Below are positions 1-14,177 of a stretch of 64,000 nucleotides of DNA, in pieces. Location of the stretch: assembly GCF_040938485.1 (NCBI RefSeq), contig NW_027271166.1, forward strand, positions 434,001-498,000, in the 5' to 3' direction. This stretch comes from Diadema antillarum (lineage: Eukaryota). The position numbers are program-made. Positions within the stretch are counted from its first letter, which is position 1; each line of letters opens with the position of its first letter.

Positions 1-3000
1 ACGTATGCCCATGATTTTTTTTTTCATCATGGCTACTTCTAAAACACTGATAAATTCAGTGCTTATTCACGGCAGTTTGTCAATCAGTTACAATGAAAAA
101 CGGAAGAATTTCATGAATGTGAATAACACTAACGTGTGTCTGTAACATTCCATTGAAGTCAATGATATATATTCAAACTTCTCGTCAACTGGGCTTTATA
201 ATTTTAAATTCATTTATAGAGAGCAAACACCACAATAGCACAATTATTACTATTGAGATTGGTGGTATAAAAGTTTTTGAGACGCCTTAAGATAAAATAT
301 GTGTTAATGTTGGAAGGAAACACTTCTACGTCTTACATTTTAGCATTTTAGCGCCGTACATCGTATATCGCGCCGAAAATACATACTCCATCTTATTGTC
401 AATGACACATTCCAGTTTAAATCAATCGTTTTGTTCCATTATCACTTTTATTTTATTTTTTGTTCCATTACCACTATCAATATTATCATATTGTTTATTA
501 CTAACAAATAATTCAACAAACTTTATTGAAATTGAATCAATAATACAAAATGATACACAAAGACACGGCTTTCACAAAATACTCTTAGATTTAAACCTCT
601 GATGTTTGTCTTTATAGTCGACTTGCAGATATTTTCCCCCGTGCTTTCAGGCTTTGTCCTTTTCATTGGGTCCCTCCATTTTTCGAATTTTGCGTATTGT
701 TTACTTCCCTCTGATCACTTCAGTTTTATGACAATGTATACACTCTTTTCAACTCACATTGTTTTACGCACCTTATTTTCTGTTACCAAAAAATTATGTG
801 TGTATGTCTTTTTTTTTTTGAAAAATGAAATTGAAAATTAAAATGGAAAATTGAATTGAATGGCTCAGCAGAAGAGACCGACATTGTCTTCTGGTCAATA
901 AGACAGGCAGATTGCTCGTGCTTCCCCCGCCTTGGAGGCTCGCCAAAATCGAATCTCCCCTCCTTCCATTATCATCGCCATGCGACCATAATCATTCTTG
1001 TCGTTTACCCATACTAGAAGAGAAGAGAAGAGAGATAAAGAAGGAGAAAGGGGATGGGTTATCGGAAACACAACAACATGTTCGTGATATATTTTGACAA
1101 AAATAATGCTAACATAGAGTTTTTATTGACCATCAGAAACAAGCAGTCCAATGAAACAAAGAGTAGACGGAAGAAAAAGATGTTGATGAGATCAATGGCT
1201 GCGTGAGAGACGCAACGTATGTCTCTAATGGAAGGCAAACACACTTTCTACCGTATTTCATTCATCCATGGTAGTTAAAGAAAGCGCAAAATATGTATTT
1301 ACAAATATATATGAATATATATATATATATATATATCCTTCCTTTATCAATACATCATACAACATGAATAGATGAATATATACCTCCACAGACATATTTC
1401 ACATTCCAAGTGCAGTTAAATTTTAAATAAGGCAACTTCTATTCGTATTGACTGTCGATATTGATGTGATATCTCCAGCTTCATACTTTGGTATTGATAA
1501 GAAGGCAAACCACTATCCACTGACACATCCACCATCAGTTTATGTACGTATCATATGGATTTTCATCTAAATACACATGTATATACAGTGTATTCTACAT
1601 TCTTTATGTATTAATTTGATGTATATTATAACTATGTGTGTTTTGTATGGGTGTGTTCGTGTGTGGATGTATCATGCACTTGTGTTTGCGTGTCTTTACA
1701 TTTTTTCGATTTGCATAGACAGGGAAACATGTGTACCAGATATTTCCTTCCCTTTCCATTCCTTTTATACACCAGTACACGCACCTTGAGTCTCGTTCGG
1801 AAAGAGGGAGTCCAGCGGTACGCTTTTGCCAGTCGGAGGCCAGGCGCACCGCCACTCGCCCGTCGATCCCTGGTACGATGAACTCCAGTCAGTGAGATTG
1901 GCGAGCCAGCAGCAGGTGCATCGGTACCACACGTAGTCATGGTTACCGCACTGGGCCAGTTCGGCACGGAAAGCCTCCAGGACGAATGACCGGTTGAAAG
2001 GCATTGGCATTTGTCGTTCGCGGCAGAATATCTTGGCGAGATAAAACTTCGACTTGGTGCACAGGATGAGAGAATCATTTCCTGAGGATAAGGATTCGGT
2101 GAGTATACAGAGATAGGGGAGAAGGGAGAGAGAGGGAGGGGGAGTGGTATTAAAATCAACTCATAAACAGCAGGAATTACATCTCACCACCTCAGAAAAG
2201 TAGCATTCAGAAGACAGGCAGCTCTTCAGGCTGTCACAGAAAATACCACTTCCTCCACATCAAGGTTCATGCCATCTTCATAACTATAGGCGGCGCATAT
2301 AAAGCACCAGACCTTCATCATCCAGGACTGCCCAAACGCTCCCCACAGGAAATATAACCTCAGCAGAAAGGCGAGCTAGCTCTCCAACATGTGGAAAGAA
2401 CAACAACCTGCAGGCAGACTCACCAGCGTGCTGCCATTAAAATCCAACACCCCGTGCCTGCAAACGCAAAGAATTATGCCATCTAAACTGACTCCGCACT
2501 GGCGTCCGGCTCTTTCAAAGCCTGCAGGTACCTGTGGAATCTCTCGGACTCAGACAGACGCGAATATGGTGAGGCACACACGGCGGACCACCTAATCGAA
2601 CACGGCACTATCCATCACCTGATCCCTGGCAGGTGGATGGACTGTCCTCCGAAGTCTCACTCCTGCTACCATGCAGGACCTGACTGAAAGATACAGTCTT
2701 CACCGCTAAAGAAAAGAGACGATCGATCAGAACCTACAAGCAAGAGGAGGAAGAAGAAGCGCTTAAATGAATAAGGTTTCTATTCTAACTTATGAAACTG
2801 TAGCAATGAATAGTAAAAGTTATGACATAAAGATAACGTATCAATTCACAGAAATGTGGTTTATCGGATTTCAGTGGTTTAGTGTAACCAAGGGAAAAAA
2901 ATCGATTTCTTCAATACCAGTAGATTCGTTGACGCGGAGAGCGGGCTGACTGGTTGGGGCTGCTTCGGATGTCGCACCTGATTCTGCGTCTGTTGTTTGC

Positions 3001-3779
3001 ACTGAGCTCCAGCCATCCCCTTCTTCTGCCCCCAAACTTTCAGATGGCCCAGGATCGTCGATCATTGTCTCGGTCATGACCGTGGTCAGGGCAGTGGAGT
3101 CGGGAATGATTGTAGGCGATGCCGAGGAGAAGGTAGGTGGGTTCACTCCCGATCTTGTTGGTCTAGGACTGCGTGTTTGTCCGCCATTGTCGTTTGTATA
3201 TCCTGCGAGTAAAGTGATACGGCTCATGGTCAACGAAACAAGAAATGAATCCGGTAGAGTCTTTCGTGGAGAACTCCAGAATGAACTCATTGATTTTCCT
3301 CGTATAATCTCTCGAATTTCCAGCTAATTTCCAGTGAATTACTCTGTTTGCTTTTTGAGTAACCTTAGTGTAACGCGTATAGACATTTTATCCACTTGAT
3401 ACATCTCTTCTACATATTGTTGGAATTGAAAAAGGAAATAATTTAAAAACTGTCACAGAATTGACAAGAATCGAATTTAACAGCAATCTTATCATGTTTC
3501 ATTGGCGTAGAATAAAAACAGAGGTCCATGCGTTTTTCACCCTATGTCCCGATTTCATGATCAGATTGGAATTCTTCCTGGGCATTTATGTCGTCAACAG
3601 TACAAGAAATTCTATTTATTCTGAAATATAAACGAATATGAACTAAATAACGCAATAGGAACAACACGTGGAACTAGTTTTCAATATTCAATCATTCTCA
3701 GATTTCTTAACTATTTCGCGTGAAAGTTTAAACTTTCGTGAACTTTTGAGATGACAATGGCAGGGGCCAAAACGCCATC

Positions 3780-3816
<37 letters not shown>

Positions 3817-11831: not shown

Positions 11832-11890
<59 letters not shown>

Positions 11891-14177
11891 CTAGAAGGGA
11901 AAGAGGAATATCGAAGCGAGTTGCAATATCAAGCAACATCTTCGGTAGATGTTGAACAATTCTCACCTGTATCACTCAGTGATGGGAGACAGACACAGTG
12001 CGAGTTGATTCCAGGGAGGGGAGAGATGAGCGGTTTGATTTTCAGCGGGAACGTCGCGAGCTGCTTCCCGTCTCTCCCGGGGAAAGGACGACATAGGCTG
12101 GCCAAGTCTGCACACGAGTCGGTATGGACAGTGTTACTGCGCCGGCGAAGGATTACATGCTTTGAAGCATATACCAACCATGTACCATCTGTGGGACGTT
12201 AACATGCTAACATGTTTAGTAAGATGGATTAGCCGAACTAAAGTTGTCCATATCAATTTACCATAATAAAAGAAAATAATTGACCGTCTCAGTTGACTTT
12301 CATTACATTCCATTAAAGGGATGGTATAGTTTCGGTTGAGATTGGGCTTCAGGTTTCCAACCTTGTTTGATGATGATTTTTTTTTTCAGATGATGAGAAA
12401 CCTCTTCTCTAAATCCCTCTTCTTAGAATGGCATGCTCTCCATAACACTTCTTGAAGTGGTTTTTAACATGTTGTTTAAGGAGCTTACACAAAGTTAAAA
12501 GCTGAATCCTCACCTAAACCAAATACTAAACCATCCCTTTAAAGTTTCATCATCTGTTTCTCTGTTGAAACATATCATTGCATGTAGGCCTACAGAGTGT
12601 CCATGACTGTCTGTTTGGTGACGTCATCTTTATGTAAACAACGAATGATCTAATATGCGGTAAGGAAAATTAGCAGACAATTCAGAATTAGATTGATAAG
12701 GGGTAAATGTAAATAAGAATCATAAATTTAGAATGGTAAATCATAACTTAGACTAAGTGACTCCCGCGTCATCCGACGCATGACTCGCTCAGCCTCCTCC
12801 ATTTGGATATGTCAGCAGTCAGGTCTTTTATATTCCCCCAGTTTCCAAGTTTCCACGTTTCCAAATCATGCTTCATGTCATTTGTATCATTCCGGAATAT
12901 GATTTAAAAAGTCAAGTCAAAACAAAACAAAACAAAACTTTCACTCAGCGGTAGATTCTGCTTTACTTGTTTTTGTGTGTGTTTTTTAAAGACTTTGTCA
13001 TCGAGTACTGTTTCTGACACCATCGGTCATAACAGATTCGACCTTTGCAAGACGTCCAGAACACTCGGCATTTAACTCAATTTGTTTTCGTTTGACTTTC
13101 AACGAACTATATACACAGTGAGATTTGACCACAATCATGTTCATCGGTCAAACAGAAAGATATTATTTTAATGTTTGATACTATCAGGGACCTGTTGCAT
13201 GAAACTTTCTAACTGGGAAAACTTAGGTTGATTGTTTTTTTTTTTCGCAGAGCTTTCCCTGTGTTAGAGTCAATGGAGGAATCATACTAACCCAATTTTT
13301 CTGTTCTGTTCTCTTGTGTTTTTCTCAGGTATAACGTTTATGCAACAGGTCCCTGGTGTTAAGATATACAAGATTGTATACTTACATACGGATAGCAGCA
13401 AACAAAGCAGGCACCGCGTCGTCATCTTGATGTGTTCGTTTGTTCTGTGTGTTACTCCTAAATACCATAGCATAGAAAGTGACGGAACGATAAGTTCCAC
13501 TTTACTATTTCTTAATCGCACCCTGTATTTTTTTCCACAAGCACAAACTTCACTTTCACTATGTTCACATCAGAATAATATAATGACCAACGCACAACGA
13601 ATAAAAAAGCGCAGCCTGACACATAGGGCCTACTCCCACACACACAGGCATGATACATGATATATGCACATGTACAAGCTTCCTGTACTCTACACTTGTA
13701 TTTCGAAATATCCTTTTCTTTTCTACATTAATACCCTATACCGTTGCTATAAAATACTAATATGTATCCCACTATGTTATATTCACTTAATTTGTTCCAC
13801 AAGTCAATACATACATAGAAGTTTAACTTGGAATTCTGCATTGAACGTAAAGTTCGATTGTGATTTCACCCAAAAATGTAGTCCTTATTGCATTGATTAC
13901 AATGACTCTGCAAAGAATAATCAGAGACAATATTGCTGCATATAATCCGTGGTACTCAAAATATATACTTATAAACTGCGTAAGACTGCATTGGTAATCT
14001 CACAATAAGCAGATAAGCAACAGGTGTGATATTGATTCAGACAACTTACCTTTCCCATTTCTCATGTTTCCTATTTCGAATTTTTCCGAAGTACGTTGCT
14101 GGTGGGAGAGCTTATATAGTCAGAGTGACAGAGAAGTTGAAATTTTCTGTAGCGCGGGGTTGAGAGGTAGAGAACGA

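What the first reader, a model, noticed from the sequence alone, without database searches (positions are those of the whole stretch)
1785..13425. Unrecognised duplicated secreted protein: signal peptide + 4-Cys module + mucin stalk + compact lectin-like domain
Seen: splicing minus-strand exons at GT-AG sites conserved in both copies gives one open frame. All internal exons are phase 1-1, the signature of exon-shuffled extracellular modules. The first module (C-x6-C-RPFPGRDG...HCVC) resembles no family I recognise. The 99-codon module has CTLD-like spacing but no EPN/QPD or WND Ca2+/sugar motifs, and an unusual RCTCCW cluster right after the VW strand. Inference: a compact CTLD lacking the long loop region, in a lineage-specific extracellular recognition or matrix protein (immunity, fertilisation or biomineral matrix). 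The ORF track misses the gene as a unit.
[Added by the scan's program, not by the reader: the finding's places include an assembly gap (unread letters, written N; its length is only estimated) at 8958 to 9107, 11200 to 11344. Whether the letters on both sides are continuous or in frame is not known: test that first.]
Basis: partly seen in the sequence, partly recalled or inferred. Interest (0 to 1): 0.65.

Follow-up and report, generated by a model that had tools for sequence, protein, structure and literature searches.

The report
Duplicated sea-urchin secreted mucin-like gene
Two tandem copies of an unannotated five-exon sea-urchin gene encode a secreted, mucin-like glycoprotein whose cysteine- and tryptophan-rich end domain has relatives only in two uncharacterised Diadema proteins and could not be shown to be a C-type lectin.

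Summary
Two head-to-tail copies lie on the minus strand, about 8 kb apart. Each has a leader exon, a 4-Cys exon, an S/T/P-rich exon and a 99-codon Cys/Trp exon. All readable splice sites are GT-AG and all junctions are phase 1.

Exon 4 ends at a donor with no stop. A fifth, 39-codon terminal exon (895-1013 and 8591-8709) is the only good phase-1 acceptor downstream in either copy. It is also the best-conserved stretch.

Exon 4 is under purifying selection (dN/dS 0.25-0.31). Among 1.84 billion representatives it matches only two uncharacterised Diadema proteins (E 3.5e-13 and 6.5e-12). A neighbouring gene places the window in or near Diadema, so these are paralogues.

The C-type-lectin reading got no support. 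Pfam and PDB sequence searches found nothing, and AlphaFold gave pLDDT 35. The domain is not compact either, because it continues past exon 4.

The gap at 11200-11344 hides copy B's exon 3 acceptor. The gap at 8958-9107 is intronic.

Verdict: a real, lineage-restricted secreted glycoprotein gene pair of unknown fold. Moderately interesting.

The parts
4206..4245 (-). Copy A exon 1: ATG plus 13 codons plus 1 nt, hydrophobic leader, donor GTAAGT
3883..4089 (-). Copy A exon 2 (207 nt, phase 1-1): end of the leader plus the 4-Cys module C-x6-C-RPFPGRDG ... HCVC
   Evidence: No family found
2918..3202 (-). Copy A exon 3 (285 nt, phase 1-1): S/T/P-rich stalk (41% S+T+P). The donor at 2918/2917 is the one conserved in copy B. 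The in-phase GT at 2978/2977 is not conserved.
1785..2081 (-). Copy A exon 4 (297 nt = 99 codons, phase 1-1): Cys/Trp-rich module, 7 Cys, 5 Trp, 4 N-x-S/T sites
895..1013 (-). Copy A exon 5 (new, outside the finding): acceptor with 19 of 20 pyrimidines plus TAG, 39 codons including the split one, one Cys, stop TGA at 897-895
13386..13425 (-). Copy B exon 1: ATG plus 13 codons plus 1 nt, donor GTAAGT
11967..12188 (-). Copy B exon 2 (222 nt, phase 1-1): 4-Cys module
10951..11199 (-). Copy B exon 3, readable part only (249 nt, open, phase-1 donor at 10951/10950)
11200..11344 (.). Assembly gap hiding copy B's exon 3 acceptor and about 9 nt of the exon. The frame across it is unverifiable. Not filled.
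9855..10151 (-). Copy B exon 4 (297 nt = 99 codons): Cys/Trp-rich module, 8 Cys
8958..9107 (.). Assembly gap inside intron 4 of copy B. Flanks are colinear with copy A. Not coding.
8591..8709 (-). Copy B exon 5: acceptor with 20 of 20 pyrimidines plus TAG, 39 codons, stop at 8593-8591. It differs from copy A at 3 nt (2 synonymous, 1 Glu/Lys).
122..894 (-). Copy A duplicated 3' flank (possible 3' UTR), paired with 7570-8590 of copy B. Poly(A) signals are not conserved between the copies.

Best explanation
The locus holds two tandem paralogous genes of a sea urchin of, or very close to, the genus Diadema. Each has five exons on the minus strand and encodes a secreted, heavily glycosylated modular protein. 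Copy A's exon lengths add up to 315 residues.

Shown:
- The exon structure and the duplication.
- Homology of exon 4 to the C-terminal domain of two Diadema 'uncharacterized proteins'.
- Purifying selection on exon 4.

Inferred mechanism:
- The leader (exon 1 plus the first residues of exon 2) takes the chain into the secretory pathway.
- The 4-Cys module forms two disulfides and is the fast-evolving end (dN/dS 1.8, not significant).
- The S/T/P-rich exon 3 is O-glycosylated into an extended spacer.
- Exons 4 and 5 together make one C-terminal globular domain of about 137 residues. Copy A has 8 Cys there, enough for four disulfides, and 4 N-glycan sequons (3 of them at positions shared with copy B).
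- That domain is the conserved binding head.
- The C-terminus has no hydrophobic stretch, so the product is soluble or matrix-bound, not membrane- or GPI-anchored.

The likeliest role is an extracellular binding or bridging glycoprotein (mucus, coat, matrix or humoral recognition). The ligand is unknown. The fold of the head domain is undetermined; it is an orphan domain limited so far to Diadema.

The copies are old duplicates that patchy gene conversion has partly homogenised at the 3' end.
For: Gene structure: canonical, conserved phase-1 GT-AG junctions in both copies.

Homology: exon 4 of copy A hits 2 of 1.84 billion representatives, XP_072176101.1 (D. setosum, E 3.5e-13) and XP_071498489.1 (D. 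antillarum, E 6.5e-12). The alignment shows invariant Cys and Trp columns, and the domain starts where exon 4 starts. The reverse profile finds only the two exon-4 ORFs among 2757 ORFs. Both relatives carry an S/T-rich stalk before the domain, and P0007 has a hydrophobic N-terminus.

Selection: exon 4 codons 1-38 have dS 1.27 and omega 0.25 (p 0.005). Codons 39-98 have dS 0.17 and omega 0.31 (p 0.047).

Exon 5:
- It is the only one of 80 (copy A) and 112 (copy B) downstream AG sites with at least 15 of 20 upstream pyrimidines and a phase-1 ORF of at least 20 codons. The two sites are homologous.
- Identity is 1.00 and 0.95 in its two 60-nt windows, against 0.70-0.72 in the adjoining windows, with no indels.
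- The other two frames have early stops.
- It brings the domain's Cys count in copy A from 7 to 8.

Leader hydrophobicity is 2.0 and 2.3. Stalk composition is 41% and 37% S+T+P.

Taxon: the neighbouring sulfotransferase ORF is 98% identical to a D. antillarum protein.
Against: - No transcript evidence could be consulted.
- No protein of this gene, nor of an orthologue, is in the libraries, although Diadema RefSeq proteins are there. It may be weakly expressed, or not expressed at all.
- Exon 5 shows no detectable similarity to the tails of the two relatives. BLASTP gave no alignment at E<=100. The tail profile ranks the exon-5 ORFs 378th and 620th of 2757 (E 170 and 250). It also lacks the two Cys of their RC...C motif.
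- Copy B has an odd Cys count in the head domain (9).
- Copy B's exon 3 acceptor is hidden by a gap.
- Exon 2 has dN/dS 1.8 (p 0.098, not significant), which also fits relaxed constraint.
- Signal-peptide cleavage, glycosylation, disulfides and any binding activity are inferred, not computed with dedicated predictors or measured.
- Poly(A) signals are not conserved between the copies.
Confidence: 0.62

Rival explanations
1. One reading: exons 4 and 5 encode a highly divergent C-type lectin-like domain (CTLD). It has lost the WIGL motif, the Ca2+/sugar motifs and, in this gene, the inner disulfide. It works as a non-sugar-binding recognition or matrix module, like other non-lectin CTLDs.
For: - Size of about 137 residues, at the end of a secreted protein.
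- An N-terminal Cys pair, a predicted long helix ending in a Cys, then a hydrophobic-Trp strand.
- The Diadema relatives end in R-C-L-A-V ... D-G ... C ... V-C-V. From memory, this resembles the beta3/beta4/beta5 end of a CTLD with its two disulfide partners.
- P0007 carries an EGF-like stretch (Pfam EGF E 8.2e-4, 20.0 bits, below the 21.5 cut-off), a partner domain often found with CTLDs (recalled).
Against: - No Lectin_C match at E<=10 for 4 of 4 domain sequences or for the exon peptides.
- The profile of 4 sequences finds no CTLD among 177,635 PDB sequences at E<=10. The single hit is a nanobody at E 0.71.
- AlphaFold2 gave pLDDT 35.4 twice and predicts one long helix, not two.
- Foldseek: 0 matches at E<=0.001, and none of the rows shown is a lectin.
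- The Atlas feature search pointed to DUF7042-44 clusters, not to lectins.
- No WIGL, EPN/QPD or WND motif.
Confidence: 0.2
2. The two copies are transcriptionally silent relics or decaying duplicates of a Diadema gene family. The open frames persist only because the duplication and gene conversion are recent.
For: - The gene is absent from all protein libraries searched.
- Exon 2 has dN/dS 1.8 and exon 3 has 0.55 with many indels.
- The 3' half, including non-coding flank, is 81-97% identical, as expected from recent conversion and not only from selection.
- Odd Cys count in copy B.
Against: - Where the copies are old (exon 4 codons 1-38, dS 1.27), omega is still 0.25 (p 0.005).
- All 10 exon frames read are free of stops. 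All 15 readable splice sites are canonical in both copies, even though introns 1-3 have diverged beyond blastn detection.
- Exon 5 is a sharp identity peak between flanks of 0.70-0.72.
Confidence: 0.13
3. The head domain is a distant member of the invertebrate DUF7042/DUF7043/DUF7044 domain group (Pfam), which is itself uncharacterised.
For: In the Atlas feature search with residues 226-390 of P0007, all ten best hits that carry a Pfam family share a family or clan, with scores 0.84-0.77.
Against: - Scores under 0.9 are leads only. A third of shuffled proteins reach 0.8 and also show ten-of-ten agreement (text).
- hmmscan finds no such family at E<=10 in 4 of 4 sequences.
- The query was the paralogue, not the window's gene.
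- No paper holds these names.
Confidence: 0.05

Closest known systems
XP_072176101.1 (Diadema setosum, 390 aa) and XP_071498489.1 (Diadema antillarum, 374 aa), both 'uncharacterized protein' in RefSeq
   Same: The C-terminal Cys/Trp domain is 37-41% identical to exon 4. Six Cys and four Trp columns are invariant, including the C-x-C-C-W cluster. A long S/T-rich stalk lies directly upstream. The genus is the same or a sister genus.
   Different: These are paralogues, not orthologues. Their N-terminal parts show no similarity to the 4-Cys module, and one has an EGF-like stretch instead. Their tails (R-C-L-A-V ... C ... V-C-V) have two more Cys and no detectable similarity to exon 5. They are annotated; this gene is not.
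C-type lectin-like domain (Pfam PF00059 Lectin_C). Echinoderm examples such as spicule-matrix proteins and echinoidin are recalled, not tested.
   Same: Size, extracellular setting, richness in Cys and Trp, and the pattern of an N-terminal Cys pair, then a helix, then a hydrophobic-Trp strand. No Ca2+/sugar motifs, as in many non-lectin CTLDs (recalled).
   Different: No profile, sequence or fold match in any test here. No WIGL motif. A C-x-C-C-W cluster that, to my knowledge, is not a CTLD feature.
Vertebrate proteins built from lectin-like, EGF and mucin modules (thrombomodulin/CD93 group, selectins). Recalled.
   Same: They use phase-1 extracellular modules. A globular Cys-rich head is joined to an O-glycosylated stalk.
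   Different: The module order is reversed here: the head is C-terminal. There is no transmembrane segment, no recognisable EGF in this gene, and no sequence relationship was shown.

Membership tests
C-type lectin-like domain (PF00059 / CTLD fold) | Match to the Lectin_C profile | tested here: not met
   hmmscan at E<=10 found none for exons 2, 3 and 4 of copy A. None for 4 of 4 domain sequences. None for exon 5 at E<=0.01. None for full-length P0007 and P0008 at E<=1.
C-type lectin-like domain (PF00059 / CTLD fold) | Sequence similarity to a solved CTLD | tested here: not met
   The profile of alignment A2 against 177,635 PDB sequences gave one hit at E<=10, a nanobody at E 0.71.
C-type lectin-like domain (PF00059 / CTLD fold) | Double-loop alpha/beta fold with two helices | tested here: inconclusive
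   AlphaFold2 on the two paralogue domains with 4-row alignments gave mean pLDDT 35.4 both times and one long helix. Foldseek against PDB gave 0 of 94 listed matches at E<=0.001. The model is too poor to decide. The window's own exons 4 and 5 were not joined or folded.
C-type lectin-like domain (PF00059 / CTLD fold) | WIGL-type strand and the four canonical Cys (outer and inner disulfide) | tested here: not met
   The strand reads V-W-[YC]-R-C. This gene has no counterpart of the inner pair, since exon 5 has a single Cys. The definition of the canonical pattern is recalled.
C-type lectin-like domain (PF00059 / CTLD fold) | Ca2+/carbohydrate motifs EPN or QPD, and WND | tested here: not met
   Absent from exons 4 and 5 of both copies. 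Many true CTLDs also lack them (recalled).
Diadema C-terminal Cys/Trp domain family (XP_072176101.1, XP_071498489.1) | Significant similarity over the domain core | tested here: met
   phmmer E 3.5e-13 and 6.5e-12. The reverse profile gave E 5e-23 and 2.3e-21 for the two copies, with the next ORF at E 2.4.
Diadema C-terminal Cys/Trp domain family (XP_072176101.1, XP_071498489.1) | Conserved Cys/Trp framework including C-x-C-C-W | tested here: met
   Invariant columns C10, C46, C56, C58, C59, C80 and W53, W60, W67, W78 in 4 of 4 sequences.
Diadema C-terminal Cys/Trp domain family (XP_072176101.1, XP_071498489.1) | C-terminal tail R-C-L-A-V ... C ... V-C-V | tested here: not met
   Exon 5 gives no BLASTP alignment. 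The tail profile ranks it 378th and 620th of 2757 ORFs. Only a terminal [IV]-C is shared by eye.
Diadema C-terminal Cys/Trp domain family (XP_072176101.1, XP_071498489.1) | S/T-rich stalk directly upstream of the domain | tested here: met
   Exon 3 is 41% and 37% S+T+P. The stalks of the relatives are visible.
Secreted mucin-type glycoprotein | Cleavable signal peptide, dense O-glycosylation, no membrane anchor | not testable with these tools
   Only composition and hydrophobicity were computed. No SignalP, NetOGlyc or GPI predictor is on hand. The exon 5 C-terminus has no hydrophobic stretch.
EGF-like domain | Six-Cys EGF pattern or profile match in the 4-Cys module | tested here: not met
   No Pfam hit at E<=10. 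Only four Cys remain after the leader, spaced C-x6-C ... C-x-C.

The most novel reading that the evidence does not exclude
The exon 4 plus exon 5 head is a new extracellular fold, not a CTLD, that arose or diverged beyond recognition within diadematoid sea urchins. It is paired here with an orphan 4-Cys module evolving faster than neutral (dN/dS 1.8), and kept as a tandem pair by patchy gene conversion. That pattern is typical of self/non-self or gamete-recognition genes.
Probability: 0.2. Interest if true: 0.55.

Novelty: new variant of a known kind. Interest (0 to 1): 0.36.

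Why it matters
The finding adds two unannotated genes, and a corrected five-exon model, to a small family so far seen only in Diadema. That genus is a keystone reef grazer hit by mass mortalities, according to the abstract starts listed.

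The family's head domain has no Pfam family and no solved relative, and AlphaFold2 with a four-row alignment could not fold it. It is therefore a candidate lineage-specific extracellular domain.

It is also a small worked example of how a phase-1 exon reading can look like a 'compact' domain when the last exon has been missed.

Beyond that it is an ordinary kind of gene: a secreted modular glycoprotein with no known function.

Tried and rejected
- Transmembrane reading of the ORF upstream of exon 5. The hydrophobic stretch L-F-S-[SF]-[LF]-L is the translated polypyrimidine tract of the acceptor. Conservation starts only at the TAG. Rejected.
- Read-through of the exon 4 donor. It adds 7 codons in copy A and 38 in copy B, with an indel between the copies. 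Rejected as a conserved ending.
- Alternative exon 3 donor at 2978 in copy A. It is in phase, but the GT is absent in copy B. Rejected in favour of 2918.
- Word-index protein searches. Exon 4 with lengths 'longer' gave 0 of 37 candidates. P0007 residues 222-390 found only itself among 57 candidates. These searches were too insensitive to add members.
- Exon 5 against P0007 by BLASTP, and against a profile of the two Diadema tails. No support. My by-eye alignment of R-M-A-M-I ... A-I-C with R-C-L-A-V ... V-C remains only a lead.
- Exon 2 against the relatives: BLASTP E 2.1 and a profile search with no hit. Against PDB: Mediator 21 at E 1.4. In the Atlas: best score 0.76 with recognition 1251. 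Nothing.
- AlphaFold2 twice and Foldseek once. The models were too poor to use.
- DUF7042-44 lead from the Atlas. No Pfam hit, and no paper holds 'DUF7042', 'PF23069', 'DUF7043', 'DUF7044' or 'DUF7045'.
- Rfam over the whole window: no match at gathering score.
- Literature. The search for sea urchin / C-type lectin / mucin / EGF / secreted gave only generic listings, and I read none of them. For the Diadema genome papers I saw the search listing and abstract starts only.

Not done:
- The spliced (joined) protein was not assembled, searched or folded. All work was exon by exon.
- The genome-contig scan was not used, because it holds only bacteria and archaea.
- Paper supplements were not consulted.

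Full report
1. WHAT IS THERE

The window has four N runs. Two of them fall inside the finding: 8958-9107 and 11200-11344.

Direct-repeat and blastn analysis shows a tandem duplication with a period of about 7.5-8.1 kb. The paired blocks are 122-2009 with 7570-10079, 3097-3193 with 11103-11199, and 3776-4028 with 11858-12118, at 81-92% identity.

tblastn of the copy-A exon peptides finds exactly one further copy of the 4-Cys, stalk and 99-codon peptides. It finds nothing else in the 64 kb. The 13-residue leader peptide matches only itself. Its copy-B counterpart was found by reading and alignment. blastn of the unit against 13.6-64 kb finds nothing.

Reading the minus strand and locating the junctions gives these exons.

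Copy A:
- 4245-4206 (40 nt)
- 4089-3883 (207 nt)
- 3202-2918 (285 nt)
- 2081-1785 (297 nt)

Copy B:
- 13425-13386 (40 nt)
- 12188-11967 (222 nt)
- ?-10951
- 10151-9855 (297 nt)

Every readable acceptor ends in AG and every donor begins with GT. All junctions are phase 1, and the junction codons are sense codons.

2. THE GAPS

The gap at 8958-9107 lies in intron 4 of copy B. The sequence on either side is colinear with copy A at 1228 and 1346, where copy A has an AT-rich microsatellite. It does not touch coding sequence.

The gap at 11200-11344 sits on the intron 2/exon 3 boundary of copy B. Aligned to copy A, the readable exon resumes at the tenth exon base. The upstream flank aligns weakly, about 50 nt before the acceptor. 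The acceptor and about 9 nt of exon are therefore hidden. Continuity and frame across the gap cannot be established, and I did not fill it. The 249 nt below the gap are open and end in a phase-1 donor that aligns with copy A's donor at 2918.

3. THE MODEL WAS INCOMPLETE AT THE 3' END

Exon 4 ends on a conserved donor (CAAG|GTGCGT in copy A, CAAG|GTGTGT in copy B) with no stop. Read-through is not conserved: it adds 7 codons in copy A and 38 in copy B.

I enumerated every AG downstream, 80 in copy A and 112 in copy B. Only one in each copy has at least 15 of 20 upstream pyrimidines and opens a phase-1 ORF of at least 20 codons. These sit at 1013 and 8709, which are homologous positions.

This exon has 39 codons, counting the split one, and ends in TGA in both copies. 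The copies differ there at 3 nt, of which 2 are synonymous. Its two 60-nt windows are 1.00 and 0.95 identical with no indels, against 0.70-0.72 in the windows on either side. The other two frames stop early. It supplies one Cys, which makes 8 in the head domain of copy A.

An apparent transmembrane stretch just upstream is only the translated polypyrimidine tract.

Against exon 5: it has no detectable similarity to the tails of the relatives. I therefore rate it likely (about 0.7), not proven.

With exon 5, copy A's five coding exons add up to 948 nt, or 315 codons plus a stop. Everything was done exon by exon.

4. IS IT A REAL GENE?

Exon 4 has dN/dS 0.32 (p 0.0013). Divergence along the gene is mosaic:

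| Segment | dS | omega |
|---|---|---|
| Exon 1 | 1.09 | 0.31 |
| Exon 2 | 0.19 | 1.8 |
| Exon 3 | 0.85 | 0.55 |
| Exon 4, codons 1-38 | 1.27 | 0.25 (p 0.005) |
| Exon 4, codons 39-98 | 0.17 | 0.31 (p 0.047) |
| Exon 5 | 0.09 | 0.13 (3 differences; p 0.12, not significant) |

Introns 1-3 are no longer alignable by blastn, whereas intron 4 and the 3' flank are 81-93% identical. This fits old duplicates whose 3' part, and exon 2, were homogenised by gene conversion.

The selection signal holds even in the old segment. Exon 2's value of 1.8 is not significantly above 1 (p 0.098).

Against reality: no protein from this gene or from an orthologue is in the libraries, and I had no transcript data.

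5. WHAT IS IT RELATED TO?

Pfam finds nothing for exons 2, 3 and 4 at E<=10, nor for exon 5 at E<=0.01.

A phmmer scan of 1.84 billion representatives with exon 4 returns two proteins:
- P0007 is XP_072176101.1 from Diadema setosum.
- P0008 is XP_071498489.1 from D. antillarum.
Both are named 'uncharacterized protein'.

Both have a long S/T-rich stalk followed by the same domain. P0007 also has a hydrophobic N-terminus and a sub-threshold EGF match. The alignment starts where exon 4 starts. Exon 4 ends at F-P-N-x-x-Q, just where P0007 carries a 22-residue insertion. After that point the relatives continue for 45-70 residues.

The neighbouring single-exon sulfotransferase ORF is 98% identical to a D. 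antillarum protein, and 67-75% identical to those of other urchins. The window is therefore from Diadema or a very close relative. At 37-41% identity, the two hits are paralogues.

Other urchins, starfish and hemichordates are well represented in the libraries but gave no hit. At single-sequence sensitivity the family is so far limited to Diadema.

6. IS THE HEAD A C-TYPE LECTIN DOMAIN?

No test says so.
- No Lectin_C match for 4 of 4 domain sequences at E<=10.
- No CTLD among PDB sequences with a four-sequence profile.
- AlphaFold2 models of both paralogue domains had pLDDT 35.4.
- Foldseek gave nothing at E<=0.001.
- The WIGL, EPN/QPD and WND motifs are absent.

The Atlas feature search pointed weakly (0.84) to DUF7042-44 clusters. 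Pfam does not confirm this, and no paper mentions these families.

The resemblance to a CTLD rests on size, an N-terminal Cys pair, a helix ending in Cys, a hydrophobic-Trp strand, and, in the relatives, a tail that looks like beta3-beta5. That is a recalled pattern, not a result. I keep the CTLD reading as a rival at about 0.2 and describe the head as an orphan Cys/Trp domain of unknown fold. 'Compact' is wrong in either case.

7. THE 4-CYS MODULE

The two copies are 56% identical, with an invariant core L-C-R-P-F-P-G-R-D-G and P-L-P-G-I ... H-C-V-C.

It has no match in Pfam, in PDB or in the Atlas (best 0.76). It does not match the N-terminal parts of the two relatives. It remains an orphan.

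8. MECHANISM (INFERRED)

- The leader directs secretion. Its hydrophobic core scores 2.0 and 2.3.
- The chain then has two disulfides in the 4-Cys module.
- Next comes an O-glycosylated S/T/P spacer, 41% and 37% S+T+P.
- It ends in an N-glycosylated, disulfide-rich head. Both copies have 4 sequons in exon 4, of which 3 are at shared positions.
- Exon 5 has no hydrophobic C-terminus, so there is no membrane or GPI anchor.

The likeliest role is a soluble or matrix-bound binding glycoprotein. The ligand and the tissue are unknown.

9. SURROUNDINGS

- Two tandem UDP-glucuronosyltransferase genes lie on the plus strand. Their N-terminal exons are at 19340-20275 and 28337-29245. Their C-terminal exons are at 24343-24894 and 33547-33993.
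- A Sulfotransfer_2 gene lies at 39350-40267 on the minus strand.
- There is no Rfam match in the window.

10. VERDICT

This is a real finding with a corrected gene model. The lectin label is unproven. The gene is an ordinary kind of gene carrying two orphan modules in a lineage-restricted family. Interest is moderate.

Noticed in passing
window 19340-20275 and 24343-24894 (+); 28337-29245 and 33547-33993 (+): There are two tandem UDP-glucuronosyltransferase genes. Each shows a long N-terminal exon and a C-terminal exon with a membrane tail. Pfam UDPGT E-values range from 1e-20 to 1e-28. This is a second tandem duplication in the window, about 9 kb apart.
   Followed up: partly
window 39350-40267 (-): A single-exon carbohydrate sulfotransferase ORF (Pfam Sulfotransfer_2, E 2.4e-54). 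It is 98% identical to a Diadema antillarum 'carbohydrate sulfotransferase 11-like' protein, which places the window in or near that genus.
   Followed up: yes
window 1785-2081 vs 9855-10151, and flanks: Divergence between the two copies is mosaic. dS is 1.27 in exon 4 codons 1-38 but 0.17 in codons 39-98, and 0.09 in exon 5. Introns 1-3 are unalignable, whereas intron 4 and the 3' flank are 81-93% identical. This looks like patchy gene conversion with a boundary near 2009.
   Followed up: partly
window 3776-3819 and 11792-11890: A (GTT)n/(CAA)n microsatellite lies at the same place in intron 2 of both copies, just downstream of the exon 2 donor. It is much longer in copy B.
   Followed up: no
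window 1632-2183 (-): A 183-aa stop-free frame overlaps exon 4 of copy A in another reading frame. It is R/S/P/G-rich, and its copy-B counterpart (9888-10148) is only 86 aa. I take it to be a by-product of the G+C-rich exon, not a gene.
   Followed up: partly
P0008 (XP_071498489.1), residues about 10-225: The stalk of the D. antillarum relative consists of near-identical tandem repeats of about 70 residues. The stalk of the window's gene shows no such repeats.
   Followed up: no
window 30823-30964 and 46762-46948: Two further assembly gaps lie outside the finding. The first lies between the two parts of the second UGT gene.
   Followed up: no
window 47686-48105 (-), 56432-56908 (+), 41974-42420 (-), 63135-63563 (+): These are long stop-free frames with no Pfam match at E<=0.01. 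The one at 56432-56908 ends in a hydrophobic stretch. They were not examined further.
   Followed up: partly
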